DNA from: Asterias amurensis
Lineage: Eukaryota
DNA length: 64,000 bases
Reading direction: 5' to 3'
NCBI RefSeq assembly: GCF_032118995.1
Contig: NC_092652.1
Span: forward strand, 15,752,336 to 15,816,335
Positions 1 to 59,560 of the stretch are shown piece by piece. A program made the position numbers and the translations under genes. The notes beneath the pieces are model-generated. The model did not search any database. It had not been told where the DNA came from and saw only the letters and a program-made list of their open reading frames with translations. Positions within the stretch are counted from its first letter, which is position 1. Every line of letters starts with the position of its first letter.

Positions 1-293
1 CATTGTGATAAACGGCTCCCTCTGAAGTAACGTAGTTTTCGAGAAAGAAGTAGTTTTTCACGAATTTGATTTCGAGACCTCAAGTTTAGAACTTGAGGTC
101 CCGAAATTAAGCATCTGAAAGCCATAATTTCGTGGGACAAGGGTGTTTTTTCTTTCATTAGTTATCTCGCAACTCCGACGACCAATTGAGCTCATCTTTT
201 CACAGGTTTGTTATTTTATGCATATGTTGAGATACACAAGTTGTGAGAAGACTGTCTTCTACAATTATCAATAGTGTCCAGTGTCTTTAAAGG
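1..293 (-). mobile_element. MITE family A copy (truncated by window start)
   Basis: matches ~385-bp consensus with ~55-bp TIR aaaggcagtggacactattggtaattactcaaaataattattagcataaaacc and internal gatttcgagacctca...tgaggtctcgaaatc hairpin. Confidence 0.8.
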
Positions 294-3710: not shown

Positions 3711-4096
3711 TTAAAGGCATGGACACTATTGGTAATTGTCAGAGACCAGTCTTCTCACCCGGTGTATCTCAACAAATGCATAAAATAACAAACCTGTGAA
3801 AATTTGAGCTCGATTGGTCATCGGAGTTGGGAGAAAATTATGAAAGAAAAAAACACCCTTGTCACACGAAGTTGTGTGCTCTCAGATACTTGATTTCGAG
3901 ACCTCAAGTTCTAAATCTGAGGTCTCGAAATCAAATTTGTGGAAAATTACTTCTTTCTCGAAAACCACGTCACTTCAGAGGGAGCTGTTTCTCACAATGT
4001 TTTGTACTATCAACCTCTCCCCATTACTCTTAAACAATAAAGGTTTTATGCTAATAATTATTTTGAGTAACTACCAATAGTGTCCACTGCCTTAAT
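3711..4096 (+). mobile_element. MITE family A, full copy (in PARP4 intron 1)
   Basis: both TIRs present, flanked by TTAA contexts. Confidence 0.85.
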
Positions 4097-9166: not shown

Positions 9167-9409
9167 GCAGCACTATATTGGTAATCACTCAAAATAATTA
9201 TTAGCATATAACCTTACTTGGGACGAGTAATGGGGAGAGGTTGATAATATATAACATAGTTAGAAACGGCTCCCTCTGAAGTGACATTTTCCACGTATTT
9301 GATTTCGAGACCTCAGATTTAGAATTTGAGGACTCGAAATCAACGATCTAAAAGAACACGACTTCGTGTGACAAGGGTGTATTTTCTTTCATTATTATCT
9401 CGCAACTTC
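9167..9409 (-). mobile_element. MITE family A, truncated copy
   Basis: TIR + internal hairpin, loses last third. Confidence 0.75.
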
Positions 9410-10015
9410 AATACAATACATACAATACAATAATACACTAATCTTTATTAGATCCCAAAAAAGGGTAATTCAAATGCTCGCATACAGTAAAACATTGACA
9501 CATTAAAAACATTTAAAAAACAGACAATGGCTATATACAATTACAAGAAAAAACACTAAAAAGCGATAAGAAAAATACCCGAGACTGGGCGATAAATTTA
9601 TAACCGAGCTGTGAGCTCGGTTACCGTTTCGGTTATGACGTCAGAAACAGTTTTTGGTTGGGGTCGCCAAAACGCACTCCTAGTTCAGTGGAATACTTTC
9701 TGTTTCACCGGATTGTTGGTTTTGCCTTGTGTGTCGGTTCTTGTTTTTTGGCGGCACTTGTGCCCTTGAGCAAAAACAAAAGAGTACGTTAACTGCGCAG
9801 TTATTTTGTCCTGGTGGGAGTTGGTCCAATATTGTGTAATTTACTGAACAAACACAAATCTACATCAAAGAAAAACCTATTTGTTGTCTAGGTGTTTTTG
9901 ATAACTGCGATTGTGCAAACGCATGTGTAAAAAAACAAAATGTCTTTTGCAAAATAATAAGAACCCATTGAGTTTTGTATAATATTTAGTTTCGATTTGT
10001 TATTTCTCAATTTTT

Positions 10016-10292
10016 AAAGGCAGTGGACACTATTGGTAGTTACTCAAAATAATTGTTAGCATAAAACCTTACTTGGTGAAGAGTAATGGGGAGAGGTTGA
10101 TGGTACAACACATTGTGAGAAACGGCTCCCTCTGAAGTGACATAGTTTTTGAGAAAGAAGTAATTTTCCACAAATTTGATTTCGAGACCTCAGATTTAGA
10201 ACTTGATGTCTCGAAATCAAACATCTAAACACACACAACTTCGTGTGACAAGAGTTTTTTCTTCTTTGACTATAGTGTCCAGTGTCTTTAAG
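10016..10292 (-). mobile_element. MITE family A copy with internal deletion
   Basis: both termini present. Confidence 0.8.
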
Positions 10293-14792: not shown

Positions 14793-15103
14793 AAATAACA
14801 AACCTATGAAAATGAGCTCGATTGGTCGTCGAAGTTGTGAGATAATAATGAAAGAAAAACACCCTTGCCACACGAAGTTGTGTGCTCTCTTTCAGATGCT
14901 TGATTTTTTTCGTGAACTCAAAATCTAGTTCTGAAATCAAATTCGTGGAAAAGTACACCTTTCTCGAAAACCCGTTACTTCAGAGGGAGCCGTTTGCTCA
15001 CAGTGGTTTATACTATCAACCTCTCTCCATTGCTCGTTATCAAGTAAGTTGTTATGCTAACAATTTTTTTTGAGTAATTACCAACAGTGTCCATTGCCTT
15101 TAG
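14793..15103 (+). mobile_element. MITE family A, 5-prime-truncated copy abutting a foldback element; 3-prime end forms acceptor of PARP4 exon at 15104
   Basis: ...ccaacagtgtccattgcctttag|GATGACGAG. Confidence 0.8.
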
Positions 15104-15730: not shown

Positions 15731-16015
15731 GTTAAAGACACTCGACACTATTGGTAATTGTCAAAGAACAGTCTTTTCACTTGGTGTATCTCAACATACC
15801 TGTGAAAATTTGAGCTCAATTGGTCGTCGAAGTTGCAAGACAACAATAGAAATTTAAAAAACACCATCGGCCCACGATGGGTGCTTTAAGATGCTTGATT
15901 TCGAGACCACAAAATCTAATTCCGAGGTCTCGAAAACAAATTCGTGGAAAATTACTTCTTTCTCAAAAACGACATCACTCCAGAGGGAGCCGTTTCTCAC
16001 AATATATTATACTAT
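15731..16015 (+). mobile_element. MITE family A copy, 5-prime part (split by LTR retrotransposon insertion)
   Basis: continues at 23094 after the 7078-bp insertion; junction tatactat|LTR. Confidence 0.85.
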
Positions 16016-16962
16016 TGTAACGAAATGGTACCGCGCGGTGGCGCTCCAGGCTTAGCGCGAGAGTAGGCGCCCTTAGCGCGCGAAAAGGCGGTTTGGCGCG
16101 GCGCTGGCTGCCGCGGGGCATTTTGGGAAGCACGCTGCTGCCTCGTGCGTGGGGAGTGCGTAGCGGGCAGTTGCAGACTGGACAGCGGATGGTACAGACG
16201 TGTTTTCAATAGTGGTGTTTAACAATTGGCGGGGAGGATTAAGGCGGCGACGTGACTAGCGTGTTCACGTGTCGGGAGTAGTAGCAGGGCTAGCGTGGGG
16301 AGTTTTGGGAGTTGCGGTGCGTGCTGCTGACAGTTGTGTAACCGAGGGGTAGGTTTCATTGGATTATTTTCTGTGTTATTTATGGCAAGTTGGACGTAGA
16401 GACGTGCGATAATCCACTCCCGTAAGGAGGTCACATTGCATTGTATTGTTTGCTCTGGAGTCCGAGATTCTATCAGGCCCTTAAGGCATATTCTATTGTG
16501 TATTGTATTGGTTGCTCGGAGTTCGGGATTTTATCAGGCCCTAAAGGCAGCTTTGGTTTTACTGTAAATGCAGTTCAGTTACTTTAAGTTAGTTCCAGTT
16601 ACCTTAAGGGATTTTCCAGTTGCTTAAGGGATTACCAGTTACTTAAGGGATTTCGGTGACCTTAAGTTTAGTCAGTTGCCTTAAGGGACCATTTCTGGCC
16701 TTAAGTAAAGGAAGATTGCGTAGTTGGAATCAGGAATTACTGTGCTTTCGTAGGGATAATAAATAAAACGGATCAATAGTCAATCAGTAACTTGTCTCAG
16801 CCCTCACTCCTTGGAAGTCAACAGTTTCTTACAGTTTCTAGACCCCTTCCCCCACGTTTTTATTACATGCGGCGATATACGGTTGCCTAACGACCTCACC
16901 CCAAGTGCCAGCAGGACTACCGCTCGTCCTGTGCTGGTGACCACCAGACGGGAATCGCTACA
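16016..16962 (+). repeat. 5-prime LTR (947 bp)
   Basis: identical to 22147-23093 except about 3 substitutions (near 16062, 16364, 16573); contains tandem 20-bp CCTTAAGGGAT-type subrepeats. Confidence 0.9.
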
Positions 16963-16980
16963 TTGGTGTCAGAAGTGGGA
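16963..16980 (+). other. Putative primer binding site (TTGGTGTCAGAAGTGGGA)
   Basis: begins TGG immediately 3-prime of the 5-prime LTR. Confidence 0.4.
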
Positions 16981-17035
16981 TTTGCTGTAATTTTTGTGGG
17001 AGACAGGGTTATTCTAGAGCTGTATAACGGACTGC

Positions 17036-18292
17036 ATGATGGACCGGATGGATTCAAGGGCAATGGAGGAGGAGTTGGAGGTGCTTCGGATGGAGGTTCA
17101 TACAGCCGAAAATATAGTCGAGGATGCTGTCGAGGCCAGGCGGGTAATGGAGGAGGAGTTGCGCAGGATGCGTATGCAACACGCAGAGATGGAAGAGAGA
17201 CATAAGTCGGGCAGGGTCCTTGGAGCCCCTACGCCAGACATGTTTTTCAGCACTCCGAGTCCTGTGGTTTCCGGTACACTTAGGGACACCTCAGGAGCAG
17301 GATTCACACCTGCAAACACAGTTGCAGACACAGAATTCACAAGAGAACAGGAGGTGGGACGTAAGGAGGATGCGACTACTACCAGCCCCAAGGTGGACAG
17401 ACCTCGAAAACCGAACATTTGCCCGGATCGTTTCAATGGGAAGGTTCCTTGGAATGACTACAAGGCTCATTTCCGAGCTTGCTGCGTGGCGAATGCCTGG
17501 AGTGACGAGCAGGCGGTCGTGTTTCTCGCTGCCAGCCTCCAAGGGCAAGCGTTAAAGGTGCTGAGATGCCAGCCGGAGGGGAAGAAGTCGTCGCTTAAGG
17601 ACTTGATGCTCCGTCTGGACCAGAGATTTGGCCCGGGCCAACAAGCAGATTTCCATATGATGGAGGTGAGGCACCGTCGGCAGGGCGAAGTGGAAACACT
17701 GCAGGAGCTAGGGACGAGCATAAGGGAGCTATCTGCATTGGCCTACCCGGAATTCTCCGACGATAGCCGGGAACGGTTGGCTAAGGGACATTTCATGGAT
17801 GCGGTCAAGGACCGGGAGATTAGGGAAGGGATATTCCGGGTAAGCCCAACCTCTTTAGATGACGCCATTAGGGCCGCTCTGCAGACAGAAAGTTTCCTTC
17901 GGACAGAGGAACATAGGACCAATGGGAGGGGGAGAAAGTTTGCAAGGGTTGTTGCAGGAGGAGAGGACGAGGTCTCTCTGCAGGGTCTACAAGGAGAGTT
18001 AAGGGCCACTCAGGATCGCATGTCTAAGGCTTTGGGTGGAATACATGCCATGTTGGAGGACCTGTCACGTTCTAAGGGGGATTACCAGTCGGCAGTTCCA
18101 CGGGGAAGGTCAAGTGCAGACTATGCCTGTTACAACTGTGGCAAAAAGGGTCACTTCGCGAGGGAATGTTCTGAGCCGAGAAGGGAAAGGAGCTGGCAGT
18201 CGGGAAACGCTACCCAGCCAACCGTGGGGCCCAATGGAAGGCTGGAAATGGAGGAAGGACACAAAGAAACTTCCAAGGAGGGCCAGTGCTAG
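17036..18292 (+). CDS. gag: Gag polyprotein (418 aa) with capsid-like region and CCHC zinc knuckle
   Basis: ORF track; CYNCGKKGHFARECSE zinc knuckle; retrotransposon-gag-like FNGKVPWNDYKAHFRACCVANAWSDEQ; N-terminal Glu/Arg-rich coiled-coil-like stretch. Confidence 0.85.
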   Translation: MMDRMDSRAMEEELEVLRMEVHTAENIVEDAVEARRVMEEELRRMRMQHAEMEERHKSGRVLGAPTPDMFFSTPSPVVSGTLRDTSGAGFTPANTVADTEFTREQEVGRKEDATTTSPKVDRPRKPNICPDRFNGKVPWNDYKAHFRACCVANAWSDEQAVVFLAASLQGQALKVLRCQPEGKKSSLKDLMLRLDQRFGPGQQADFHMMEVRHRRQGEVETLQELGTSIRELSALAYPEFSDDSRERLAKGHFMDAVKDREIREGIFRVSPTSLDDAIRAALQTESFLRTEEHRTNGRGRKFARVVAGGEDEVSLQGLQGELRATQDRMSKALGGIHAMLEDLSRSKGDYQSAVPRGRSSADYACYNCGKKGHFARECSEPRRERSWQSGNATQPTVGPNGRLEMEEGHKETSKEGQC

Positions 18293-20484
18293 GAATGTAT
18301 AACCAAGGGATAACGCTCTCAGGGAAGAGTTCGAATATGGCAGGGCTATATGTGACCGCTCAGGTACGAGGAGTAAAAACACAGATGTTAATCGACACAG
18401 GTGCGTCAAACACGGTGCTGTCAGCAGCAGTTTACTATCAAATGGCTCCGGAGGGGAGACCTTCACTGAATACGAGGGGAGCGAAGTTGTACGGGGCGGA
18501 TGGTAGCTCCATAGAGACTATTGGCGGAGCATTGATGGAGATCCAGGTTGGCAAGACAACCCTCCCGGTACATGTGATATTTGCAAAATTGGATTTGGAG
18601 GGGATATTAGGAATGGACTTTCTCCTGCCTACAAATGGACGACTGGACTTCAAGGACATGGTGTTGACCCTGAATGGAGAACGAATAAGGTGCCAGAACG
18701 GTCAGGGTGCGAACGTTTGTGCACAGTGTGGAATGGAAGGACCGGACCTGGGTGGCCAGTTGCGCAAGTCAGGAGGAAGTGAAGGGATAGTGCCTGTACC
18801 GGATAGCGATGAAGGAGATAGTGGCCCTGCAGGAAAGGCTGAGGAAGCCAAAGCTGATTTGCGCGCCGTGGGTGTACTACCCCAAATAACCAAGGCCGAC
18901 TGGAGGGAGGCACAGCTTAGGGAAAGCTCTATGGAGTGGGTCATCAAGGCTAAGGAGGCCGAGGTACCCAGGCCAGACTGGGAGACAGTGTCAGTAACAT
19001 CCAGTGCAAGCAAGAACTATTGGCTACGATGGGAGCAGCTACTTGTTCGCGACGGCGTACTACAGCGTCGGTGGGAGTCTCACAATGGAAAGCAAACGCA
19101 GTGGCAAACCTTGGTACCTCAGGAGCTCCGAGGAGAGATATTGCATGAGCTCCACGCAGGAAGGCTGAGTGGACACTTAGGAACCAAGCGAACAATGGCG
19201 AAGGTGCACGGCAAGTTCTATTGGCAAGGGATGGCTGCAGACATAAGGTCCTTCATCCGAGAGTGTGATGTGTGTGCTAGGAGGAAGTCCCCCAACAAAA
19301 AGAGAAGGGCCCCTTTACAGCAACACCTAGTGGGAATTCCGATGGAGCGAGTAGCGATGGACATTACAGGACCCTTCCCAGTGACGAAGAATGGCAATCG
19401 TTACATACTTGTGATTGGGGACTACTTCAGTAAGTGGTTCGAAGCCTACCCCATTCCAGATGAGAAGGCAGAGACTGTTGCGGACAAGTTCGTCAAGGAG
19501 TTCGTGTGCAGGTTCGGCGTGCCTAAAACACTGCATACCGACCAAGGGAGAAATTTCGAGTCGAGGCTCATGGCCGAGGTGTGCAGAACGCTTGGGATTG
19601 AAAAGACCAGGACCACCCCCTACAACCCCAAGTCTGACGGAATGGTTGAGAGGTTTAACCGCACCCTGGTTAATATCGTAGCCATGCTGATGAAAGAACA
19701 AGCAAACAATAAGGACTGGGACGAGGAGTTGCCTTATGCGACGGCTGCTTACCGCAGCACACCACAAGAGTCCACTGGGGAAACCCCAAACATGCTGATG
19801 CTCGGTAGGGAAGTCTCTCTGCCCCTTGATTTGACAGTGGAGGAGCCCCCTGCAGGCGACGCAGATGGGAAGGAGGAGCGGGACTATGCCCAAGTGGTGC
19901 GTGAGAGAATGCAGGGCGCACATGAAAGGGCTAGAGCACGCTCGAAGAAAAGTGCAAGACGTCAGAAACAAAACTATGACAAGGGGACCAGCGAGGGCAA
20001 CTTTGCTGAAGGCACGTTCGCCTGGTTGTTCAACCCAGCGAAGAAGAAGGGGGTGTCACCCAAGTTGATGTGTAGGTGGGAAGGACCCTACCTTGTAGTA
20101 AACAGGCTGTCGGACGTAACCTTAAGGATACAAAGGAAGCCTGGAGGGAAAACGAAGGTTGTTCACTGTGACCGCCTTAAGCCGTATCAAGGTGCACCCT
20201 TACAGCCTTGGATGTCAGATGCAGACGAAGGGACGCAGGCCCTGCAGGGGCAACCCGCAGGAGATATCCCGGTGGATGATGCATCCCAGGTGGAAGTGAT
20301 TAATAGCCCGATGCCAGCGGGCCAGGTAGAACCAGAGACACCTGAAGGTGACCGGGAATCCTCTGAAGATATGGGCCATGCGGATCCTGCTCAGGTATCT
20401 AGACCCTTAGACATGACACCGTTGCCTGCACAGGCGAGACGGAATCCGTTGCGCCAGCGGAGGCCGCCACAGCGGTATCTGTAA
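18286..20484 (+). CDS. pol: Pol (732 aa) = aspartic protease + integrase only; no reverse transcriptase/RNase H
   Basis: -1 frame relative to gag with 7-nt overlap; LIDTGASNTV and GILGMDFL protease motifs; H-x3-H...C-x2-C zinc finger (HELHAGRLSGH...CDVCARRK); integrase D (VAMDITGPFP), D (LHTDQGRNFES), E (MVERFNRTL); GPY/F tail (WEGPYLVVNRL); no YxDD motif anywhere. Confidence 0.85.
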   Translation: MLGMYNQGITLSGKSSNMAGLYVTAQVRGVKTQMLIDTGASNTVLSAAVYYQMAPEGRPSLNTRGAKLYGADGSSIETIGGALMEIQVGKTTLPVHVIFAKLDLEGILGMDFLLPTNGRLDFKDMVLTLNGERIRCQNGQGANVCAQCGMEGPDLGGQLRKSGGSEGIVPVPDSDEGDSGPAGKAEEAKADLRAVGVLPQITKADWREAQLRESSMEWVIKAKEAEVPRPDWETVSVTSSASKNYWLRWEQLLVRDGVLQRRWESHNGKQTQWQTLVPQELRGEILHELHAGRLSGHLGTKRTMAKVHGKFYWQGMAADIRSFIRECDVCARRKSPNKKRRAPLQQHLVGIPMERVAMDITGPFPVTKNGNRYILVIGDYFSKWFEAYPIPDEKAETVADKFVKEFVCRFGVPKTLHTDQGRNFESRLMAEVCRTLGIEKTRTTPYNPKSDGMVERFNRTLVNIVAMLMKEQANNKDWDEELPYATAAYRSTPQESTGETPNMLMLGREVSLPLDLTVEEPPAGDADGKEERDYAQVVRERMQGAHERARARSKKSARRQKQNYDKGTSEGNFAEGTFAWLFNPAKKKGVSPKLMCRWEGPYLVVNRLSDVTLRIQRKPGGKTKVVHCDRLKPYQGAPLQPWMSDADEGTQALQGQPAGDIPVDDASQVEVINSPMPAGQVEPETPEGDRESSEDMGHADPAQVSRPLDMTPLPAQARRNPLRQRRPPQRYL

Positions 20485-20631
20485 TTAATTAGCTCTGGAG
20501 TATTGGGGGGATCGATTGTATGGTACTAGGACAACAAAGGCGTAACGTAGGAGTAGCAAACCAGTATGGGGGTAACTGCAGTGAAGTAACTGTTGCTTTG
20601 TTTGTTCTTTTTCTTTACAGTATAAAGGAGG

Positions 20632-21651
20632 ATGGAGGACCAAGAGCCAGGATGGAAGAGACCGAAGGACTGGGATAAGATGAAGCTATACGCATGTTCG
20701 GAGTGTGACGACACCTTCGTGAGCAAGAAGAGTCTTGAGACCCATCTGGGGACTCACACCACCAAGAAGAAGATCCTGTACTTCTGCAAGAGGTGTGACA
20801 GGAGATATACAAGGAAAGACAACCTGAAGGTTCACTATACCAACCACCACCCTGCAGGGATGCAGGACCTGGATACGCTGTACCCAGAAACGGAGGAAGA
20901 ACGGAGAGCTGCTAGTTCCCCAGGAGACGATGTGGATGTTCCGGGTGATTCCCCTGCCCCCTCGGGACGCAAGAGGAAGGAAACGGAGGTGACCAATCCC
21001 AGACCCAGAAAGGAGTCCAGGAAGAGGAGAGAGTGCACCGAGAAAACCAGGGAGCCACAGAAGGAAGAGGAATCGGCTGAGGAGACGCAGCTCCCCTCAA
21101 CTCCTGGGAGGAACCGGGTGATACAGGAAACGGCGGAACTGTCCTTGTCGCCAGCGTCAGTTTCCTTACTGGAAGAGGCGGGTCCTCGGCGCCGGGTAGT
21201 CCATGGAGGGAAACCTCGGGGTATGATTTCGATGATGAAGGATGCCCAGGAAGAGGGTACTGACGAGGAAGGAGTGGAGGACAACAACGACGCTCCTTTG
21301 TCCATTAATCTGGGGCGAGCACTAAAGGGAAGCACCCTACGATACAACGAAGGAGACCTGCAACAACACGTCTTTCAACCAGCTCAGGGTGTTCGACACG
21401 GGCTGGGACAAGCCGCACCGGTAGAGGAACCACCACAGGCGAGAGTGTGCCGGATCAATCGAGGCAACCCGGGGTGGCGAAAAGCAGTGCCACTTGATAC
21501 TGCTGACCTGGAGGTGATGATGGCTGGAAACGTCCGTAAGGTGAGAGAAGTCAACACAAGAAGCCAGTTTCAGAATGGCCTCAAGATCTCCGAAGAGGTC
21601 GTCGAGCGGACATACGACGTGCAGTTCACGGCAGGGTTTATCCTCAAGTAG
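20632..21651 (+). CDS. ORF3 (339 aa) C2H2 zinc-finger protein in env position of the LTR element
   Basis: two C2H2 fingers (YACSECDDTFVSKKSLETHLGTH; YFCKRCDRRYTRKDNLKVHYTNHH), then acidic/Ser-Pro-rich low complexity and a C-terminal ~100 aa unique region; intact ORF. Confidence 0.7.
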   Translation: MEDQEPGWKRPKDWDKMKLYACSECDDTFVSKKSLETHLGTHTTKKKILYFCKRCDRRYTRKDNLKVHYTNHHPAGMQDLDTLYPETEEERRAASSPGDDVDVPGDSPAPSGRKRKETEVTNPRPRKESRKRRECTEKTREPQKEEESAEETQLPSTPGRNRVIQETAELSLSPASVSLLEEAGPRRRVVHGGKPRGMISMMKDAQEEGTDEEGVEDNNDAPLSINLGRALKGSTLRYNEGDLQQHVFQPAQGVRHGLGQAAPVEEPPQARVCRINRGNPGWRKAVPLDTADLEVMMAGNVRKVREVNTRSQFQNGLKISEEVVERTYDVQFTAGFILK

Positions 21652-22134
21652 TTGTAGTCCACTTTAGGCTCGTTTTTACTAAAGCGTTACTTGTTTATAA
21701 CCTTGTTTTCTTTCAGTATAAAAGTTGTCTAAGAGAGTATATTTTGATAACAGATCTTGCCTTTGTAATCTTGTGTAATTCCCTTAAGGATTAGGTTACG
21801 AATTTGGATTGTATAACGTGATTGTGTTATGATTGGATTTGATTTGTATAAACTCCCTTAAGGAGACATTGTGATTTTTGAAATGTGTTTTACTTAAAGT
21901 TCCCTTTAGGAGCATTAGCAGACTCTTGCCTTAAAGTGTGTAAACCTCCCTTAAGGAGGCATTGTGATAACTTATTGTTTAAGCTCCCTTAAGGGGCCCC
22001 TTTGTTACTTAAAGGTGTCCGGCAGGTGCATTGTGGTGTATAAAATAACTATTTCTCTGTATAAATTTGTAAGCACCTTGAGGTACATTTCGTTTTTAGG
22101 GTATCAGTTTTACGGACCGGGTGGTCCTAACTTA

Positions 22135-22146
22135 AGTGGGGGGCTG
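22135..22146 (+). other. Putative polypurine tract (AAGTGGGGGGCT)
   Basis: purine-rich run directly upstream of 3-prime LTR. Confidence 0.45.
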
Positions 22147-23093
22147 TGTAACGAAATGGTACCGCGCGGTGGCGCTCCAGGCTTAGCGCGAGGGTAGGCG
22201 CCCTTAGCGCGCGAAAAGGCGGTTTGGCGCGGCGCTGGCTGCCGCGGGGCATTTTGGGAAGCACGCTGCTGCCTCGTGCGTGGGGAGTGCGTAGCGGGCA
22301 GTTGCAGACTGGACAGCGGATGGTACAGACGTGTTTTCAATAGTGGTGTTTAACAATTGGCGGGGAGGATTAAGGCGGCGACGTGACTAGCGTGTTCACG
22401 TGTCGGGAGTAGTAGCAGGGCTAGCGTGGGGAGTTTTGGGAGTTGCGGTGCGTGCTGCTGACAGTTGTGTAACCGAGGGGTAGGTTTTATTGGATTATTT
22501 TCTGTGTTATTTATGGCAAGTTGGACGTAGAGACGTGCGATAATCCACTCCCGTAAGGAGGTCACATTGCATTGTATTGTTTGCTCTGGAGTCCGAGATT
22601 CTATCAGGCCCTTAAGGCATATTCTATTGTGTATTGTATTGGTTGCTCGGAGTTCGGGATTTTATCAGGCCCTAAAGGCAGCTTTGGTTTTACTGTAAAT
22701 GCGGTTCAGTTACTTTAAGTTAGTTCCAGTTACCTTAAGGGATTTTCCAGTTGCTTAAGGGATTACCAGTTACTTAAGGGATTTCGGTGACCTTAAGTTT
22801 AGTCAGTTGCCTTAAGGGACCATTTCTGGCCTTAAGTAAAGGAAGATTGCGTAGTTGGAATCAGGAATTACTGTGCTTTCGTAGGGATAATAAATAAAAC
22901 GGATCAATAGTCAATCAGTAACTTGTCTCAGCCCTCACTCCTTGGAAGTCAACAGTTTCTTACAGTTTCTAGACCCCTTCCCCCACGTTTTTATTACATG
23001 CGGCGATATACGGTTGCCTAACGACCTCACCCCAAGTGCCAGCAGGACTACCGCTCGTCCTGTGCTGGTGACCACCAGACGGGAATCGCTACA
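22147..23093 (+). repeat. 3-prime LTR (947 bp)
   Basis: direct repeat of 16016-16962, starts TGTAACG ends GCTACA. Confidence 0.9.
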
Positions 23094-23193
23094 CTATTAA
23101 CAGTTCCCCGTTACTCATTACCAAGCAAGGTTTTATGCTAACACTTATTTTGAGTAGTTAATACTGATAATTTCACTGTCCACTGCCTTTAAA
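23094..23193 (+). mobile_element. MITE family A copy, 3-prime part (after LTR element)
   Basis: ctattaacagttccccgttactcattaccaagcaaggttttatgctaacacttattttgagtag...cactgcctttaaa. Confidence 0.85.
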
Positions 23194-23716: not shown

Positions 23717-23935
23717 GTAGTGGTCTTGCAGTCGTATCGTAACAATAGTGACGAAACCATGGAAGCCAAGTACGTATTTCCACTAGACCAATCAGCGGCA
23801 GTTTGTGGATTTGAGGCTTTCATCAATGATAAACATGTAGTTGGTGTCGTGATGGAAAATGAAATAGCTCATAGGGAGTATCGCCAAGCAGTGGAGGCTG
23901 GGCACGGAGCTTATCTTATGGACGAAGAATTTCCT
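23717..23935 (+). CDS. PARP4: PARP4-like exon, VIT domain (YVFPLDQSAAVCGFEAFINDK...GAYLMDEEFP)
   Basis: aaccag| acceptor, cct|gtaagt donor; strong VIT-domain motifs (FPLD..AV.GFEAFI..K..VG.V.E...A...Y..A...G.GAYL). Confidence 0.8.
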
Positions 23936-24479
23936 GTAAGTTACTTGTTTATCATACTATGACAATAACTGGTTTGCTCCGTATCCGTTACATTATAACT
24001 GTTTTCATTTTTACTTTCACTAATTATTTTCTTGATCTATCCTTGACCGTCTTTGAATTAAAGAAATTGTACTTCATGTGTTTATTATTCTCCTTTTTTG
24101 ACCAAGAAGAAAAGAAATGTTCAAATATTAATAATAACAATAATAACAATGATATAAATATGGGGGCTTATAATCCTTTGCAGCTAAAATTCAGTTATGC
24201 TACAACATTATCAGGCTGCACTGGAAAGTGCCTATATGGCAGTCTTACACCATAAGCACAGACAGAGGTTTGAGTTTTTCTTGAAAAACACTCATGGCAT
24301 AGGAGAGAACCATTGCATAAATATACATTGATACCTCACCATGCAATGCCTCAACAAGCAAACATTGGCTAAGCGACGAGTAAAAACCTTGTTTTTGACA
24401 GTGTCTTTTTGTTTGTCATGATGTGTAGAACAAAATGGTAACAAAGTTAACACTGTTTTCATGTTCTGTAATGTTTAAG

Positions 24480-38161: not shown

Positions 38162-38512
38162 AAAGGCGGTGTGGACACTATTGGTAATTACTCAAATTAA
38201 CTATTAGCATAAAACCTTACTTGGTAACGAGTAATGGGGAGAGGTTGATTGTATAAAACATTGTGAGAAACGGCTACCTCTGAAGTAACGTAGTTTTCGA
38301 GAAAGAAGTAATTTTCACGAATTTGAGTCAGAGGCCTCAGAATTAGATTTTGAGGTCTCGAAATCAAGCATGTTTTTTCTTTCATTATTACCTCGCAACT
38401 TCGACGACCAATTGAGCTAGAAATTACACAGGGTTGTTACTTTATGCGTATGGTGAGATACACCATGTGAGAAGACTGGCCTTTGACAATCACCAATAGT
38501 GTCCACTGCTTA
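38162..38512 (-). mobile_element. MITE family A full copy
   Basis: both TIRs. Confidence 0.85.
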
Positions 38513-40014: not shown

Positions 40015-40383
40015 AAAAGGCAATGGACACTATCAATGGTTATTGTCAAAGACCATTCTCCTCACTTGGTGTATCTCATCATATGCATAAAATAACAAAC
40101 CTGTGAAAATTTGAGCTCAATCGGTCGTTGAAGTTGCGAGATAACTATGAAAGAAAAAAAACACCCTTTTCACACGAAGTTGTGTGCTTTCATTATGCTT
40201 GATTTCGAAATCTATTTCTTAGGCTCGAAATCAAATTTGTGGAAAATTACTTCTTTCTCGAAAACTACGAGCCATTTCTCACAATGTTTTATACTAGCAA
40301 CAGCTCCCCATGACTCGTTACCAAGTAAGGTTTTATGCTAATAATTATTATGATTAATAACCAATAGTGTCCACTGCCTTTAA
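40015..40383 (+). mobile_element. MITE family A full copy
   Basis: both TIRs, some divergence. Confidence 0.8.
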
Positions 40384-46908: not shown

Positions 46909-47243
46909 TTAAAGACAATGAACACTTTTGGTAACTGTCGAAGACCAGTCTTCTTACTTAGTGTATCTCAACATTATGCATAAAATTACAAACCTGTGAA
47001 AATTTGAGCTCGATTGGTCGTCGAACTTGCGATCGCGAGAGAATAATGAAAGAAAAATCTAACTCTGAGGTCTCGAAATCAAGTTCGTGGAAAATTACTT
47101 CTTTCTCGAAAACAAAGTCACTTCAGGGAGCCGTTTCTCACAATGTTTTATACTATCAACCTCTCCCCATTACTCGTTACCAAGTAAGGTTTTATGCTAA
47201 TAATTATTTTGAGTAGTTACCAATAGTGTCCACTGCCTTTAAG
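46909..47243 (+). mobile_element. MITE family A copy (internal deletion)
   Basis: both TIRs. Confidence 0.8.
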
Positions 47244-47959
47244 GACCACCAAACCTACGTACGGGGCCCAATTTCAGAGCCTGTAATCACAAACAAACTT
47301 GCTAAAGCACAAACAAGATATAGCTTAACAGAAACAATACCATGCAGCCAAAATCAAATTAATTTTACACTGTTGTTACTGGTGCCCAGTTCAAATGTTG
47401 CTAATAAAAGAAATGTCAAGCAGTATGTTCTGCTTGAACTTCATGAAGTTTGGTCTAGGTCACTTTGTATTACAAAGTTGATAATGGAATAGAAACGGCA
47501 ACACAGGGTTGCTCCACACTAAAATAGGTCAACAATTCATGCACCAAAATTAGGCCCCCAAAATCTGTTTAATAATAACGTTTCTGGGTCATGCAATTTT
47601 AATATTGTTTAATTATGACAAGTTACCATCCTGAAGGGGTTCTTTGCCTCAACTTTTTAAGAGACTTGACTAAGGCTTTAAAGTCGGCCCCATTTGGCTT
47701 GGGAGGTGGGTAAGTTCCCCACTCGGGCAGCTAATCGTTTTGGGAAAAGGCACCTTTTTTTCGTGCTTTTCTAAACGGATGGCCTGCTAACAAAATTGAA
47801 AAGAAGTCTGAAGTTTATTGTACGGAAATTGATTGGTTTCAAGAGGCAGAAGCTCCAAAAATTTGTTGGGTATTTGTTTTAACTTTTTAAAAAAAAATTT
47901 ATGCAAGTCGCCCAAAACAAGGCTAAAAGCCACTCTAGGTAAGGGCATAAAACATAGAC

Positions 47960-51772: not shown

Positions 51773-52148
51773 GTGGACACTATTGGTAATTGTCAAAGAC
51801 TAGCCTTCACAGTTGGTGTATCTCAACATATGCATAAAATAACAAACCTGTGAAGATTTGAGCTCAATCGGTCATCGAAGTTGCGAGATAATAATGAAAG
51901 ACAAAAGACCCTTGTCACACGAAGTTGTGTGCGTTTAGATGGTTGATTTCGAGACCTCAAGTTCTAAATCTGAGGTCTCGAAATCGAATTCGTGGAAAAT
52001 TACTTCTTTCTCGAAAACTATGGCACTTCAGAGGGAGCCGTTTCTCACAATGTTTTATACCATCAACCTCTCCCATTACTCGCACCAAGAAAGGTTTTAT
52101 GCCGATAATTATTTTGAGTAATTACCAATAGTGTCCACTGCCTTTAAA
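51773..52148 (+). mobile_element. MITE family A full copy
   Basis: both TIRs. Confidence 0.85.
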
Positions 52149-52529
52149 CCAAAGGACAGTTTGGATTGACCAAACATGTGTTTACCTCTTATACTTGCAA
52201 AAGCAAGTTGGTGTCATATTAATCTGGTTCTATCGTGTATGTGTAGTAATGTAAATGTAAACCTTTCGTTGCCAAAGGGTCACGGCCATGGTGTTATAAA
52301 ACTGCAAAGTGACGTCCTATTCGTGATGAAATGTCCGCTCTATACATGGCATAGAAGAGTACGCCCTCTTATGAGAACTCTTGGCATAAGTCTCATTTGG
52401 GCGAGTGAGGTGTGTTTAAAACCAGATATTATCAAAGATTCGGACACGAATGGGTCGAAGCATTCAAGGAACCTGTCTATAGGTCAAAACAACGTTTAAC
52501 AGGTCAAGTCATCAGTTTGACCTTAATGT

Positions 52530-52911
52530 TAAAGGCAGTGGTCACTATTGGTAATTACTCGAAATAATTATTAGCATAAAACCTCACTTGGTATCGAGTA
52601 ATGGGGAGAGGTTAATAGTATACAACATTCTGAGAAATGGCTCCCTCTGAAGTAACGTAGTTTTCAAGAAAGAAGTAATTTTCAACGAATTTGATTTTAA
52701 GACCTCAGAATTAGATTTTGAGGTCTCGAAATCAAGCATCTGAAAGCACACAATTTCGTGTGACAATGGTGTTTTTTCTTTCATATCTCGAAACTTCGAC
52801 GATCAATTGAGCTCAAATGATCACAGGTTTGTTATTTTATGCATATGTTGAGATACACCAAGTGAGAAGATTGGTCTTTGACACGTGCCAATAGTGTCCA
52901 GTGTCTTTAAG
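52530..52911 (-). mobile_element. MITE family A full copy
   Basis: both TIRs. Confidence 0.85.
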
Positions 52912-58569: not shown

Positions 58570-58878
58570 AAAATACATGGTAATGAGCAATGTAATTGGG
58601 AGCTGCTGGTAGTATAAAACATTGTGAGAAACGGCTCCCAACAAACACTTTTATAGTTGTTTCATATGGCCATATGAAATAACTATAATAGTGTTTGAGA
58701 AAGAAGTATAATTTCTCTCTAAAATAATTTGAATTGAAGTCGAGACCTCATTGAACTTGTGGGACAAGGGTGCTTCCTCGCAACTTCTACATCCAATCGA
58801 GTTTCAAATTTCCACAGGTTTATTTTGTTATGTAGATGTTAAGAAAACTGATACCAAAGGTGTCCAGTGCCTTTAAAG
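58570..58878 (-). mobile_element. MITE family A, diverged copy with internal insertion
   Basis: recognisable gagaaacggctccc and gtgtccagtgcctttaaagg terminus. Confidence 0.6.
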
Positions 58879-59172
58879 GCAAAAAGTACGAAGTGTCTTG
58901 TAAGAAGGTACGAAGTATCTTGTTTAGAAGGTACGACGTGTCCAAGGTATACGAACGGTGTCAAAAGTCACTCATATCTGTAATGAAAAATACTAAATAA
59001 ATTCAGAGCATTCCCAGAACCGCTCTTTTAAGATTGACATGTGATCCAGTTTGTACCATTCACACTGGCAACAATGACATTATCATTGTGCCATGTGATC
59101 CGATAATGGATCATGATGGTGTATATTGGACTGGCCGTCATCAGTGTGATCCGAATCCGAGATTAGGAACTT

Positions 59173-59560
59173 TAAAGGCAGTGGACACTATTGGCAATTA
59201 CTCAAAATAATTATTAGCATAAAACCTTTCTTGGTGACGAGTAATGGGGAGAGGTTGATGGTATAAAACATTGTGAGAAACGGCTCCCTCTGAAGTGCCA
59301 TAGTTTTCGAGAAAGAAGTAATTTTCCACGAATTTGATTTCGAGACCTCCGATTTAGAACTTGAGGTCTCGAAATCAACCATCTAAACGCACACAACTTC
59401 GTGTGACAAGGGTGTTTTTTTTCTTTCATTATTATCTCGCAAGTTCGATGACAGATTGAGCTCAAAATTTCACAGGTTTGTTATTTTATGCATATGTTGA
59501 GATACACCAACTGTGAATGCTAGTTTTTGACAAATACCAACAGTGTCCACTGCCTTTAAA
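59173..59560 (-). mobile_element. MITE family A full copy (between CTLD-A and CTLD-B exons)
   Basis: both TIRs. Confidence 0.85.

What the first reader, a model, noticed from the sequence alone, without database searches (positions are those of the whole stretch)
20632..21651. Intact third ORF in the env position encodes a C2H2 zinc-finger protein
A 339-aa ORF lies after pol and before the PPT/3-prime LTR. It has two canonical C2H2 fingers (C-x2-C...H-x3-H, twice) within residues ~21-75, followed by an acidic Ser/Pro/Glu-rich region and a unique C-terminal ~100 aa. Extra ORFs in LTR elements are usually env-like or unknown; a DNA-binding ZNF accessory gene is unusual. It could act in targeting, regulation, or host-factor mimicry, or it may be a captured host gene.
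Basis: seen in the sequence. Interest (0 to 1): 0.65.

Follow-up and report, generated by a model that had tools for sequence, protein, structure and literature searches.

The report
Retrotransposon-borne zinc-finger accessory gene
A recently inserted LTR retrotransposon, probably in a sea-star genome, carries after its pol gene an intact gene for a two-zinc-finger nuclear protein. This gene is a conserved, selected third gene of a group of echinoderm Gypsy elements, and I found no earlier description of this kind of retrotransposon accessory gene.

Summary
ORF 20632-21651 (339 aa) is intact, has two Pfam-significant C2H2 fingers, and lies between pol and the PPT/3' LTR of a young Ty3/Gypsy-type element (16016-23093; 947-bp LTRs 99.7% identical; TSD CTAT).

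It is neither chance nor a passenger. Homologous ORF3s follow the pol stop in seven other loci. These include complete elements in Patiria miniata (sea star) and Lytechinus variegatus (sea urchin), and an RT-containing element from a metagenome. Silent sites are saturated (pS 0.7-0.85) while pN is 0.24-0.46.

All eight loci have a polypyrimidine tract plus AG 10-19 nt before the ORF3 ATG. That argues for a spliced subgenomic mRNA.

The protein has paired fingers, an NLS-like basic stretch, a disordered acidic region with conserved short motifs, and a small C-terminal beta-hairpin domain with no known relative.

The finger-2 helix, RKDNLKV, nearly equals the engineered AAG-reading helix RKDNLKN. 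CTTAAG arrays are strongly enriched in the element's own LTR and 3' UTR. My best reading is a self-recognising DNA-binding regulator.

Two sea-star host genes appear to derive from such ORF3s. The window's pol lacks RT and RNase H.

The parts
16012..16015 (+). Target-site duplication CTAT (5' copy). The 3' copy is at 23094-23097.
   Evidence: Read from the sequence. The reconstructed empty site matches paralogous copies of the host repeat at about 3971-4050 and 59230-59310.
16016..16962 (+). 5' LTR, 947 bp, with TG...CA ends. AATAAA lies at 16758-16767. Seven CTTAAG motifs are present, six of them in an array with a period of about 20 bp at 16603-16705.
   Evidence: blastn gives 99.68% identity to 22147-23093. 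The three mismatches are at 16062, 16357 and 16572. CTTAAG: 7 observed against 0.33 expected.
16964..16981 (+). Primer-binding site TGGTGTCAGAAGTGGGAT. From memory, it is complementary to the 3' end of a tRNA-Leu.
   Evidence: Read from the sequence. The identical 18-mer follows the 5' LTR of the Patiria miniata element L008. The tRNA assignment rests on recall only; no tRNA gene is in the window.
17036..18292 (+). gag, 418 aa, with one CCHC zinc knuckle.
   Evidence: zf-CCHC, 30.4 bits. It is 48% identical to the N-terminal part of P. miniata XP protein P0042.
18286..20484 (+). pol remnant, 732 aa, in the -1 frame relative to gag. It holds aspartic protease (aa 23-113), a linker of about 50 aa, and integrase (aa 277-633). 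Reverse transcriptase and RNase H are absent.
   Evidence: Pfam. tblastn of a full-length relative's pol (L009) hits only its residues 1-161 and 574-1207. The alignment shows a gap of about 575 columns.
20596..20620 (+). Candidate 3' splice site for a subgenomic ORF3 mRNA: CTTTGTTTGTTCTTTTTCTTTACAG, with the AG at 20619-20620, 11 nt before the ATG.
   Evidence: The preceding 20 nt are 85% pyrimidine. The same feature lies 10-19 nt before the ORF3 ATG in L004, L001, L008, L003, L009, L015 and L017, although the spacers are otherwise dissimilar in sequence. No RNA data were available.
20632..21651 (+). ORF3, 339 aa: the zinc-finger accessory gene.
20695..20850 (+). Paired C2H2 fingers (C22-H42 and C52-H72/73). 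The recognition helices (-1 to +6) are SKKSLET for finger 1 and RKDNLKV for finger 2.
   Evidence: Pfam. AlphaFold pLDDT is about 80. The module is conserved with the signature R-x-D-N-L in finger 2 across the family. The engineered helix RKDNLKN is listed for the triplet AAG in PMC3607563.
20962..21033 (+). Basic stretch SGRKRK...RKESRKRR (aa 111-134), which looks like a bipartite nuclear localisation signal.
   Evidence: Sequence and charge profile. The NLS function is inferred.
21139..21225 (+). Two conserved short linear motifs inside the disordered region: LSLSPASVSLL (aa 170-180) and GGKPRGM (aa 192-198).
   Evidence: These columns are invariant in alignment A2 and recognisable in distant members. 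pLDDT is below 50.
21439..21636 (+). C-terminal domain (aa ~270-335): two short strands, a helix, and a long beta-hairpin.
   Evidence: A profile search finds it at the C-terminus of 34 cluster representatives. AlphaFold with 19 sequences gives pLDDT 74-93. There is no Pfam, PDB-sequence or Foldseek-PDB match.
21652..22146 (+). 3' untranslated region with five CTTAAG motifs (21783, 21857, 21950, 21988, 22131), ending in the polypurine tract AAGTGGGGGG (22134-22143).
   Evidence: CTTAAG: 5 observed against 0.28 expected. All 11 CCTTAAGG octamers of the window lie inside the element.
22147..23093 (+). 3' LTR.

Best explanation
ORF3 is a genuine, selected third gene of a clade of echinoderm Ty3/Gypsy LTR retrotransposons. 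It is not env, not a decayed relic and not a recent passenger.

It is most likely translated from a spliced subgenomic mRNA that uses the acceptor 11 nt upstream of its ATG.

The product is a soluble, probably nuclear protein with these parts:
- two tandem C2H2 fingers with DNA-reading residues;
- a basic NLS-like stretch;
- a disordered acidic region carrying two conserved short motifs;
- a small C-terminal beta-hairpin domain, possibly used for self-association or partner binding.

I propose that the fingers recognise the short palindromic (C)CTTAAG(G) motifs, more generally CCT-N(0-2)-AGG, that are piled up in the element's own LTR (just upstream of the poly(A) signal), in the leader, and in the 3' UTR. 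On this reading the protein acts as an element-specific regulator. It would be a transactivator or anti-silencing factor that promotes expression of its own family.

Shown: the ORF, its conservation, selection and synteny, the conserved acceptor-like signal, the motif enrichment, and the match of the finger-2 helix to an AAG-reading helix.

Inferred: splicing, nuclear localisation, DNA binding to those motifs, and the direction of the regulatory effect.
For: Conserved position. ORF3 homologues lie directly after the pol stop in L004, L001/L002, L003, L008, L009, L015 and L017. Integrase identity to the window is 61% (L001), 60% across protease-integrase (L008) and 45% (L003). ORF3 identity to the window is 42% (L001) and 29% (L003).

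Complete young elements carry it.
- P. miniata L008: 720-bp LTRs, 100% identical.
- Metagenome L009: 501-bp LTRs, 100% identical, with RT.
- Lytechinus variegatus L017: 407-bp LTRs, 99% identical, with RT.

Selection. pS is 0.68-0.85 against pN 0.24-0.46 between lineages. For window against L008, ORF3 has pS 0.76 and pN 0.33, like gag (0.79/0.34). A frame-shifted control shows no such excess of silent changes (pS 0.39, pN 0.43 for ORF3).

Acceptor. A polypyrimidine tract plus AG lies 10-19 nt before the ATG in all eight loci. In the host paralogue LOC119740576 an exon begins at the equivalent place, 12 nt before an in-frame ATG.

Not env. The maximum Kyte-Doolittle score over 19 residues is 0.64.

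Fingers. They are above the Pfam cut-offs. R-x-D-N-L in finger 2 is kept family-wide. RKDNLKV differs at one of seven positions from RKDNLKN, the helix listed for AAG.

Motifs.
- 22 of the window's 31 CTTAAG lie inside the 7.1-kb element.
- LTR: 7 observed against 0.33 expected. 3' UTR: 5 against 0.28.
- L008 3' UTR: 9 against 0.33. L001: 4 against 0.14. L004: 4 against 0.26.
- 22 of 23 sites are followed by G or T, as expected for Asp at helix position 2.
- L014 has the same arrays.
- L009 and L017, which have a different finger-1 helix, have arrays of CAGGCG / CTTCAGG in the leader: 8 observed against 0.27 expected, and 11 against 0.07.
Against: - No transcript data: the splice junction and its donor are not shown, and only a weak candidate donor exists at 16986|16987.
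- No binding data: the finger-to-motif link rests on a recognition code taken from engineered fingers. Finger 1 gives no clear prediction.
- The motif arrays lie downstream of the likely transcription start and in the 3' UTR, so they are also present in the RNA. That position is more typical of RNA export or packaging elements than of promoter-proximal activator sites.
- L003 carries a different tandem motif (ATAAAGTTTTC) that fits the prediction poorly.
- Two fingers alone usually bind DNA weakly.
Confidence: 0.45

Rival explanations
1. RNA-level regulator. ORF3 binds the repeated motifs in the genomic RNA (R region and 3' UTR) and promotes nuclear export, stability or packaging of the unspliced RNA, as Rev/Rex do in complex retroviruses and CERV does in the C. 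elegans element Cer1.
For: - The motif arrays lie in transcribed parts: the LTR just 5' of AATAAA, the leader, and the 3' UTR between ORF3 and the PPT. The 3' UTR is where retroviral transport elements sit (general knowledge).
- An element whose genomic RNA contains a functional acceptor needs a way to export unspliced RNA.
- CERV is likewise a nuclear protein from a spliced mRNA, with a Cys-rich loop, an NLS and a candidate NES (PMC10309623).
- ORF3 has an NLS-like stretch and a conserved Leu-rich motif, LSLSPASVSLL, that could be an NES.
- Some motif copies form short palindromic stems.
Against: - The finger-2 residues (R-1, D2, N3) are the classical double-stranded-DNA reading set.
- Most motif copies are not embedded in extended hairpins. 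The count of inverted repeats is within the shuffled range in the window LTR (3, against a mean of 4.8) and at the top of the shuffled range in the L008 3' UTR.
- There is no sequence or fold similarity to known RNA-binding modules.
Confidence: 0.2
2. Integration-targeting or tethering factor. The fingers bind a host DNA sequence or chromatin site, and the C-terminal domain or short motifs bind integrase or Gag, steering the pre-integration complex.
For: - A DNA-binding module is joined to a separate small conserved domain and conserved short motifs, which suggests an adaptor.
- The window copy sits inside a dispersed host repeat.
- LTR elements are known to use tethering for targeting (Ty3/Gypsy chromodomains, Ty5; general knowledge).
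Against: - Only a single insertion site could be examined in any detail, and no common target sequence beyond a 4-bp TSD was seen.
- Targeting modules in known LTR elements are fused to integrase rather than being separate genes.
- This reading does not explain why the predicted AAG-type sites are concentrated in the element itself.
Confidence: 0.12
3. Repressor or decoy. ORF3 down-regulates the element (copy-number control), or mimics and antagonises the related host zinc-finger proteins.
For: - Sea stars have host paralogues with the same finger module and C-terminal domain.
- A shared C-terminal domain could allow hetero-association.
- Acidic and Ser/Pro-rich regions are found in repressors as well as in activators.
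Against: - Self-limiting genes are not expected to persist under purifying selection across lineages that are currently active. LTRs are 99-100% identical in four elements.
- No known repression domain (KRAB, BTB, SCAN) was detected.
Confidence: 0.1
4. Passenger. A host zinc-finger exon was captured by the retrotransposon and is carried along without function for the element.
For: - Host genes with the same architecture exist in Acanthaster planci and Patiria miniata.
- LTR elements do occasionally transduce host sequence (PMC5408684 discussion).
Against: - ORF3 is present and intact across lineages whose silent sites are saturated, with pN well below pS.
- It keeps a fixed position and an acceptor-like signal in all eight loci.
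- Its GC and GC3 (0.55/0.62) match gag and pol (0.54-0.55/0.58-0.59) rather than the 38-40% GC host DNA.
- In the tree the host genes fall at two places among element-borne ORF3s (82% and 47% bootstrap), not the other way round.
Confidence: 0.05

Closest known systems
CERV of the Caenorhabditis elegans LTR retrotransposon Cer1 (PMC10309623)
   Same: Both are accessory, non-structural proteins of a Ty3/Gypsy-type element. CERV is made from a spliced mRNA, as is inferred for ORF3. CERV is nuclear, with an NLS, a candidate NES and a cysteine-rich zinc-binding loop, and it acts on the element's own nucleic acid.
   Different: CERV is assembled from five exons that largely overlap the gag-pol frame, not from a separate ORF after pol. 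Its zinc loop is C4-type and it has globular multimerising domains. No homology to ORF3 was tested or seen, and ORF3's fingers look like DNA readers.
Transactivators of complex retroviruses (foamy virus Tas/Bel1, HTLV Tax); from general knowledge
   Same: Each is an extra gene in the 3' part of the genome, expressed from spliced mRNA. The product is a nuclear protein with an acidic region that raises transcription from the element's own LTR. Tas binds DNA directly.
   Different: There is no sequence relationship. Those proteins are not C2H2 fingers, their response elements lie in U3 or internal promoters, and they belong to infectious vertebrate retroviruses with env.
VANC anti-silencing proteins of Arabidopsis VANDAL (Mutator-like) DNA transposons; from general knowledge
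   Same: A transposon-encoded accessory DNA-binding protein recognises short motifs accumulated in the non-coding parts of its own family. Motif and protein differ between lineages. This is the same logic as proposed here, where CTTAAG arrays go with one finger-1 helix and CAGGCG arrays with another.
   Different: VANC belongs to a DNA transposon, is found in plants, and is an unrelated protein. For ORF3 both the binding and the effect are only inferred.
Non-env ORF3s of bdelloid rotifer LTR retrotransposons (GDSL esterase, DEDDy exonuclease; PMC5408684)
   Same: Both are third ORFs after pol in Gypsy-like elements that are not envelope genes, and both show that the env slot can hold diverse captured functions.
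   Different: The rotifer ORFs are enzymes, show no clear departure from neutrality within genomes, and are shared with Penelope-like elements. ORF3 here is a nucleic-acid-binding protein with clear purifying selection between lineages.
Errantivirus and retrovirus env genes
   Same: The position is the same (between pol and the 3' LTR), and so is expression through a splice acceptor just upstream.
   Different: ORF3 has no signal peptide, transmembrane segment or fusion-protein features, and no Pfam env match.
Host-transposase fusion genes formed by exon capture; from general knowledge
   Same: The two sea-star host paralogues join upstream host exons, in one case exons of a UBXN4-like gene, to a single large exon holding the whole finger-to-C-terminus unit. 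They enter through an acceptor at the ORF3 position.
   Different: The captured unit is a retrotransposon accessory gene, not a DNA-transposon transposase. The direction of transfer is inferred from a weakly resolved tree.

Membership tests
Ty3/Gypsy (Metaviridae) LTR retrotransposon | Long terminal repeats with TG...CA ends flanked by a 4-6 bp target-site duplication | tested here: met
   The 947-bp LTRs are 99.68% identical, with TG...CA ends and TSD CTAT. The empty site could be reconstructed.
Ty3/Gypsy (Metaviridae) LTR retrotransposon | PBS next to the 5' LTR and a polypurine tract next to the 3' LTR | tested here: met
   TGGTGTCAGAAGTGGGAT at 16964-16981 and AAGTGGGGGG at 22134-22143. 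The same PBS is present in L008.
Ty3/Gypsy (Metaviridae) LTR retrotransposon | gag with a CCHC knuckle, and pol with the domain order PR-RT-RH-IN | tested here: not met
   gag-CCHC, PR and IN are present in Gypsy order, but RT and RNase H are absent. Full-length relatives (L009, L017) have PR-RT-RH-IN. The window copy is therefore a non-autonomous derivative of this family, not a complete member.
C2H2 zinc finger (Pfam PF00096 / PF13894) | C-x2-C-x12-H-x3-H pattern scoring above the curated cut-off | tested here: met
   30.3 bits (cut-off 25.2) and 32.1 bits (cut-off 27), in two stretches. AlphaFold pLDDT is about 80 for both fingers.
Retroviral / errantiviral env | Signal peptide, transmembrane anchor, fusion glycoprotein domains | tested here: not met
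   The maximum 19-residue hydropathy is 0.64 and there is no env family in Pfam.
Retroelement regulatory accessory genes (Tas/Tax/Rev/CERV type, a functional class) | Expression from a spliced subgenomic mRNA | tested here: inconclusive
   An acceptor-like signal is conserved in all eight loci and is used as an exon boundary in a host paralogue. No transcript data and no confirmed donor.
Retroelement regulatory accessory genes (Tas/Tax/Rev/CERV type, a functional class) | Binds a cis-element in the element's own LTR or RNA and changes its expression | not testable with these tools
   Only indirect support: CTTAAG / CAGGCG arrays are enriched in own non-coding parts, and finger 2 is predicted to read AAG.
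Retroelement regulatory accessory genes (Tas/Tax/Rev/CERV type, a functional class) | Sequence or fold homology to a known member | tested here: not met
   No Pfam, PDB-sequence or Foldseek-PDB match beyond generic C2H2. CERV itself was not compared.
Host KRAB/SCAN/BTB-type zinc-finger transcription factors | Effector domain (KRAB, SCAN, BTB) plus a long tandem finger array with TGEKP linkers | tested here: not met
   Only two fingers and no effector domain in Pfam. The nearest non-family hit is a Nymphon ZNF at E = 1e-11 over the fingers only.
The ORF3 family delimited here (echinoderm Gypsy ZNF-ORF3) | Paired C2H2 with R-x-D-N-L in finger 2, then a (L/V)SP motif, G-K-(P/A)-x-G/M motif and a C-terminal G-x-V-x-x-V-x-E...R-x-Y-x-V hairpin domain; located after pol | tested here: met
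   All elements are present in the window ORF3 and in the homologues.

The most novel reading that the evidence does not exclude
A clade of echinoderm Gypsy retrotransposons encodes its own sequence-specific DNA-binding factor. This factor would recognise arrays of a short palindromic motif in that family's LTR, leader and 3' UTR, a self-recognition module that co-varies between lineages (CTTAAG arrays with one finger-1 helix, CAGGCG arrays with another). It would be the first retrotransposon counterpart of plant VANC-type anti-silencers or of complex-retrovirus transactivators outside vertebrates. The gene was exapted twice into sea-star host genes through its own splice acceptor. In addition, RT/RNase H-less derivatives that keep gag, protease, integrase and ORF3 intact are still transposing in at least two sea stars. 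That would mean a semi-autonomous life style that borrows only the polymerase.
Probability: 0.3. Interest if true: 0.8.

Novelty: new variant of a known kind. Interest (0 to 1): 0.66.

Why it matters
Extra genes in LTR retrotransposons are rare, and they are mostly envelope genes or proteins of unknown role. Very few are understood; CERV of Cer1 is one exception.

A conserved, selected DNA-binding zinc-finger gene, together with candidate binding sites inside the same element, would give a directly testable case of a retrotransposon controlling its own transcription or silencing in a deuterostome invertebrate.

It also gives a concrete route by which host zinc-finger genes can arise. The accessory gene's own splice acceptor lets upstream host exons splice into it.

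Practically, these ORF3s are at present annotated as ordinary host genes, for example 'zinc finger protein 646-like' in Lytechinus and 'uncharacterized protein' in Asterias. That inflates zinc-finger gene counts in echinoderm genomes.

The RT-less but otherwise intact and recently inserted copies raise the question of how much of its own machinery a non-autonomous LTR element needs.

Tried and rejected
- Pfam on ORF3 and eight relatives: nothing beyond C2H2 for the middle and C-terminal parts.
- Profile search of PDB sequences with the C-terminal half: no hit at E <= 10.
- Foldseek of the C-terminal model against PDB: best E = 1.4, meaningless. The first full-length AlphaFold model was two-thirds disordered, so it was not used for fold search.
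- The search for related loci with the full-length alignment failed for lack of a conserved stretch. With the C-terminal alignment it returned only two loci from one assembly.
- The locus of the Asterias amurensis homologue is not on record.
- Rfam on the element: no family. tRNA scan of the window: none, so the PBS-tRNA assignment rests on memory.
- I tested whether the CTTAAG motifs are parts of extended hairpins. Only some are, in the window and L014 3' UTRs and the L009 leader. Counts are within the shuffled range in the window LTR and at the top of the shuffled range in the L008 3' UTR. I therefore treat the short core as the unit.
- Troyka elements were rejected: they have CG...CG ends and 3-bp TSDs, against TG...CA and 4 bp here.
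- Env was rejected: no hydrophobic segment.
- Base composition could not separate host-derived from element-derived origin of the paralogues.
- Six literature searches found no description of a C2H2 ORF3 in Gypsy elements, nor of RT-less gag-PR-IN elements. Repbase and Dfam could not be consulted.
- I ran no further search on identifying the host species, because the answer would not change the verdict.
Full report
THE ELEMENT

The finding lies in a GC-rich island (51-53% against 34-43% around it) that is a complete LTR element at 16016-23093.
- The LTRs are 947 bp and 99.68% identical, with three mismatches. They start with TG and end with CA, and are flanked by the 4-bp duplication CTAT.
- The element sits inside a dispersed host repeat. 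Joining the two flanks reconstructs a sequence that matches paralogous copies of that repeat elsewhere in the window. This is therefore a clean, recent insertion.
- After the 5' LTR comes the PBS TGGTGTCAGAAGTGGGAT. Before the 3' LTR comes AAGTGGGGGG.
- The internal part holds three ORFs on the + strand: gag (17036-18292, CCHC knuckle), pol (18286-20484) and ORF3 (20632-21651). These are the only ORFs above 215 aa in the whole window.

THE OBSERVATION

ORF3 is as described: 339 aa with two C2H2 fingers above the Pfam cut-offs. The zinc ligands are C22/C25/H38/H42 and C52/C55/H68/H72.

The fingers are followed by:
- an acidic stretch;
- a basic stretch that looks like a bipartite NLS (aa ~113-134);
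- a Ser/Pro/Glu-rich region.

The protein has no hydrophobic segment, so it is not an envelope protein.

AlphaFold models the fingers (pLDDT about 80) and leaves residues 94-290 disordered. With a 19-sequence alignment it models the last ~65 residues with pLDDT 74-93, as two short strands, a helix and a long beta-hairpin.

That C-terminal domain has no Pfam, PDB-sequence or Foldseek match.

IS IT A REAL GENE OF THE ELEMENT?

Homologues and synteny. A search of 5.8 billion proteins found five relatives. Wherever DNA around one could be fetched and reached upstream of it, it lay directly downstream of an integrase-encoding pol:

| Locus | Integrase or pol identity to window | ORF3 identity to window |
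|---|---|---|
| L004/L005 | close sibling, partly decayed | 81-88% |
| L001/L002 | 61% | 42% |
| L003 | 45% | 29% |

A profile of the C-terminal half, searched against 1.84 billion representatives, found 34 clusters. The members examined show the same architecture:
- paired fingers with a conserved R-x-D-N-L helix in finger 2;
- a (L/V)SP motif;
- a GKPxGM motif;
- an acidic stretch;
- one or two copies of the C-terminal domain.

Complete elements could be read in three cases.
- L008, Patiria miniata: 720-bp LTRs, 100% identical; a gag-PR-IN single ORF of 1216 aa; ORF3 of 347 aa.
- L009, metagenome: 501-bp LTRs, 100% identical; gag; full PR-RT-RH-IN pol; ORF3 of 361 aa.
- L017, Lytechinus variegatus: 407-bp LTRs, 99% identical; gag; RT-containing pol; ORF3 of 384 aa. 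NCBI calls this ORF3 'zinc finger protein 646-like'.

The gene therefore occurs in sea-star and sea-urchin elements, both with and without RT.

Selection. Between lineages the synonymous sites are saturated (pS 0.68-0.85) while pN is 0.24-0.46. Window against L008:

| Gene | pS | pN |
|---|---|---|
| ORF3 | 0.76 | 0.33 |
| gag | 0.79 | 0.34 |
| PR-IN | 0.81 | 0.24 |

A frame-shifted control shows no such excess of silent changes. ORF3 has evolved under protein-level constraint, about as strongly as gag.

EXPRESSION

The pol-ORF3 spacers (71-177 nt) are dissimilar in sequence between lineages. Yet all eight loci have a pyrimidine-rich tract ending in AG 10-19 nt before the ORF3 ATG. In the window it is CTTTGTTTGTTCTTTTTCTTTACAG, with the AG at 20619-20620.

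This is what an env-type 3' splice site looks like. I infer a spliced subgenomic mRNA. The donor is not identified (weak candidate at 16986|16987) and no RNA data were available.

HOST PARALOGUES

Among the 34 clusters are two pairs of orthologous sea-star genes:
- A. planci LOC110985983 and P. miniata LOC119740576;
- A. planci LOC110977354 and P. miniata LOC119719922.

In P. miniata both have introns. In both, the whole unit from 23-25 aa before the first finger cysteine to the C-terminus is one large exon.
- In LOC119740576 it follows three small exons. It is entered through an acceptor 12 nt before an in-frame ATG, which is exactly the ORF3 arrangement.
- In LOC119719922 it follows five exons of a UBXN4-like gene and carries three finger pairs.

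A neighbour-joining tree of the finger module plus the C-terminal domain (126 columns) puts the two host pairs at two different places among element-borne ORF3s, with 82% and 47% bootstrap.

I read this as two exaptations of ORF3 through its own acceptor. The tree is weak, and capture in the other direction is not excluded.

WHAT THE PROTEIN MAY BIND

The finger-2 helix (positions -1 to +6) is RKDNLKV. The engineered helix listed for the DNA triplet AAG is RKDNLKN (PMC3607563). R-1, D2 and N3 are kept throughout the family.

The element is full of CTTAAG, whose two strands each read AAG. Twenty-two of the 31 copies in the window are inside the 7.1-kb element, and all 11 CCTTAAGG octamers are.

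| Region | CTTAAG observed | Expected |
|---|---|---|
| Window, each LTR | 7 | 0.33 |
| Window 3' UTR | 5 | 0.28 |
| Window outside the element | 9 | 15.7 |
| L008 3' UTR | 9 | 0.33 |
| L001 | 4 | 0.14 |
| L004 | 4 | 0.26 |

(All.)

- Six of the seven copies in each window LTR form an array with a period of about 20 bp, just 5' of AATAAA.
- The window and L008 LTRs share no detectable DNA similarity, yet both elements show the enrichment.
- L014 shows the same arrays.
- In 22 of 23 sites the next base is G or T. This is the preference expected from Asp at position 2 (general zinc-finger knowledge).

L009 and L017 have a different finger-1 helix (HYRSLQR instead of SKKSLET). Their leaders carry arrays of CTTCAGG / CAGGCG: 11 observed against 0.07 expected, and 8 against 0.27. 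The shared core across lineages is CCT-N(0-2)-AGG.

This leads to the proposed mechanism: ORF3 recognises these arrays in its own family and regulates it.

Weak points of that proposal:
- the code comes from engineered fingers;
- finger 1 gives no clear prediction;
- L003 has another repeat;
- the arrays are also present in the RNA, so a Rev/CERV-like role is a serious rival;
- only some motif copies sit in extended palindromes.

THE MISSING POLYMERASE

The window's pol has protease (aa 23-113) and integrase (aa 277-633) only. The full pol of L009 aligns to the window over its residues 1-161 and 574-1207 and to nothing in between.

The P. miniata element L008 is built the same way, and all its ORFs are intact. 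The alignment shows different breakpoints:
- the window keeps GQGANVCA after the protease and has lost the HRAG..NADSLS motif at the end of RNase H;
- L008 shows the opposite.

Either one old deletion was followed by erosion of the linker, or RT-RH was lost twice, in frame. Both copies have near-identical LTRs, so such derivatives are being mobilised, presumably with RT supplied by autonomous relatives.

Another deletion form, protease fused to the C-terminal half of ORF3, also exists (P0031).

COMPARISON AND NOVELTY

Third ORFs in LTR elements are known. Examples are env, the bdelloid esterase and exonuclease ORFs (PMC5408684), and CERV in Cer1 (PMC10309623). So the kind is known.

A conserved C2H2 zinc-finger ORF3 was not found in six full-text searches. 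Its C-terminal domain matches nothing known. Repbase and Dfam could not be checked, so consensus sequences containing it may exist unremarked.

I rate it a new variant of a known kind. 'Conserved functional accessory gene' is near-certain. The specific mechanism is held at moderate confidence.

HOST

The host species was not identified. The best protein matches come from sea stars and from marine metagenomes, so an asteroid echinoderm is likely.

Noticed in passing
window 18286-20484; L008 6001-9651: The pol ORF has protease and integrase but no reverse transcriptase or RNase H, and the reading frame is kept. The P. miniata relative (XP protein P0042) has the same architecture but different deletion breakpoints. 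Both copies have near-identical LTRs, so RT-less derivatives are being mobilised. It is unresolved whether RT was lost once or twice.
   Followed up: partly
window 16480-16705, 21783-22136, 22611-22836; L008 10846-11358; L014 1370-2241; L009 3896-4374; L017 2444-2980: Arrays of a short palindromic motif lie in the LTR (just 5' of AATAAA), the leader and the 3' UTR of these elements. The motif is CTTAAG in the window's sub-lineage and CTTCAGG/CAGGCG in L009 and L017. The arrays are strongly enriched over expectation and are conserved although the surrounding DNA is not alignable.
   Followed up: yes
window 21690-21727, compared with 20590-20631: A near-copy of the acceptor-like segment that precedes ORF3 (tttctttacagtataaagg) also follows the ORF3 stop (ttttctttcagtataaaag). 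It is present in sibling L004 too. It could be a second acceptor or a footprint of how ORF3 was acquired.
   Followed up: no
window 2-104, 493-623, 3896-4069, 9187-9337, 10013-10214, 14933-15080, 38185-38361, 40208-40383, 47054-47248, 51949-52149, 52552-52729, 58610-58639, 59171-59372: A dispersed host repeat of about 200 bp (SINE- or MITE-like) occurs at least a dozen times in the window at 75-88% identity. The retrotransposon is inserted in one copy of it.
   Followed up: partly
L010 3001-6363; L011 3001-26617: Two P. miniata host genes, with A. planci orthologues, carry the ORF3-type finger module and C-terminal domain in one large terminal coding exon. One is spliced to exons of a UBXN4-like gene and has three finger pairs. 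They are probably exapted ORF3s.
   Followed up: partly
L011 29764-35520: Downstream of the P. miniata host paralogue lies a degenerate Gypsy copy with gag, protease and integrase fragments followed by a finger-like stretch. It is another instance of the pol-to-ZNF order.
   Followed up: no
window 18200-18292: gag and pol overlap with pol in the -1 frame, and the pol frame is open for more than 28 codons upstream of the gag stop. L009 has the same frame relation, while P. miniata L008 has gag and pol fused in one frame. No obvious slippery heptamer was seen.
   Followed up: no
window 23720-23962: An 80-aa ORF just 3' of the element (VFPLDQSAAVCGFEAFINDKHVVGVV...) looks like an exon of a host gene; from memory it resembles a VIT domain. 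The element may therefore lie in an intron.
   Followed up: no
L017 9001-10155 (Lytechinus variegatus XP_041484594); P0003 (Asterias amurensis): Retrotransposon ORF3s are annotated in public genomes as ordinary host genes ('zinc finger protein 646-like', 'uncharacterized protein'). The Asterias model even contains a tandem duplication of the finger module.
   Followed up: partly
L008 14303-15448 (minus strand): A second, inverted pol fragment (protease and part of integrase, 27-38% identical to L009 pol) lies about 2 kb downstream of the P. miniata element.
   Followed up: no
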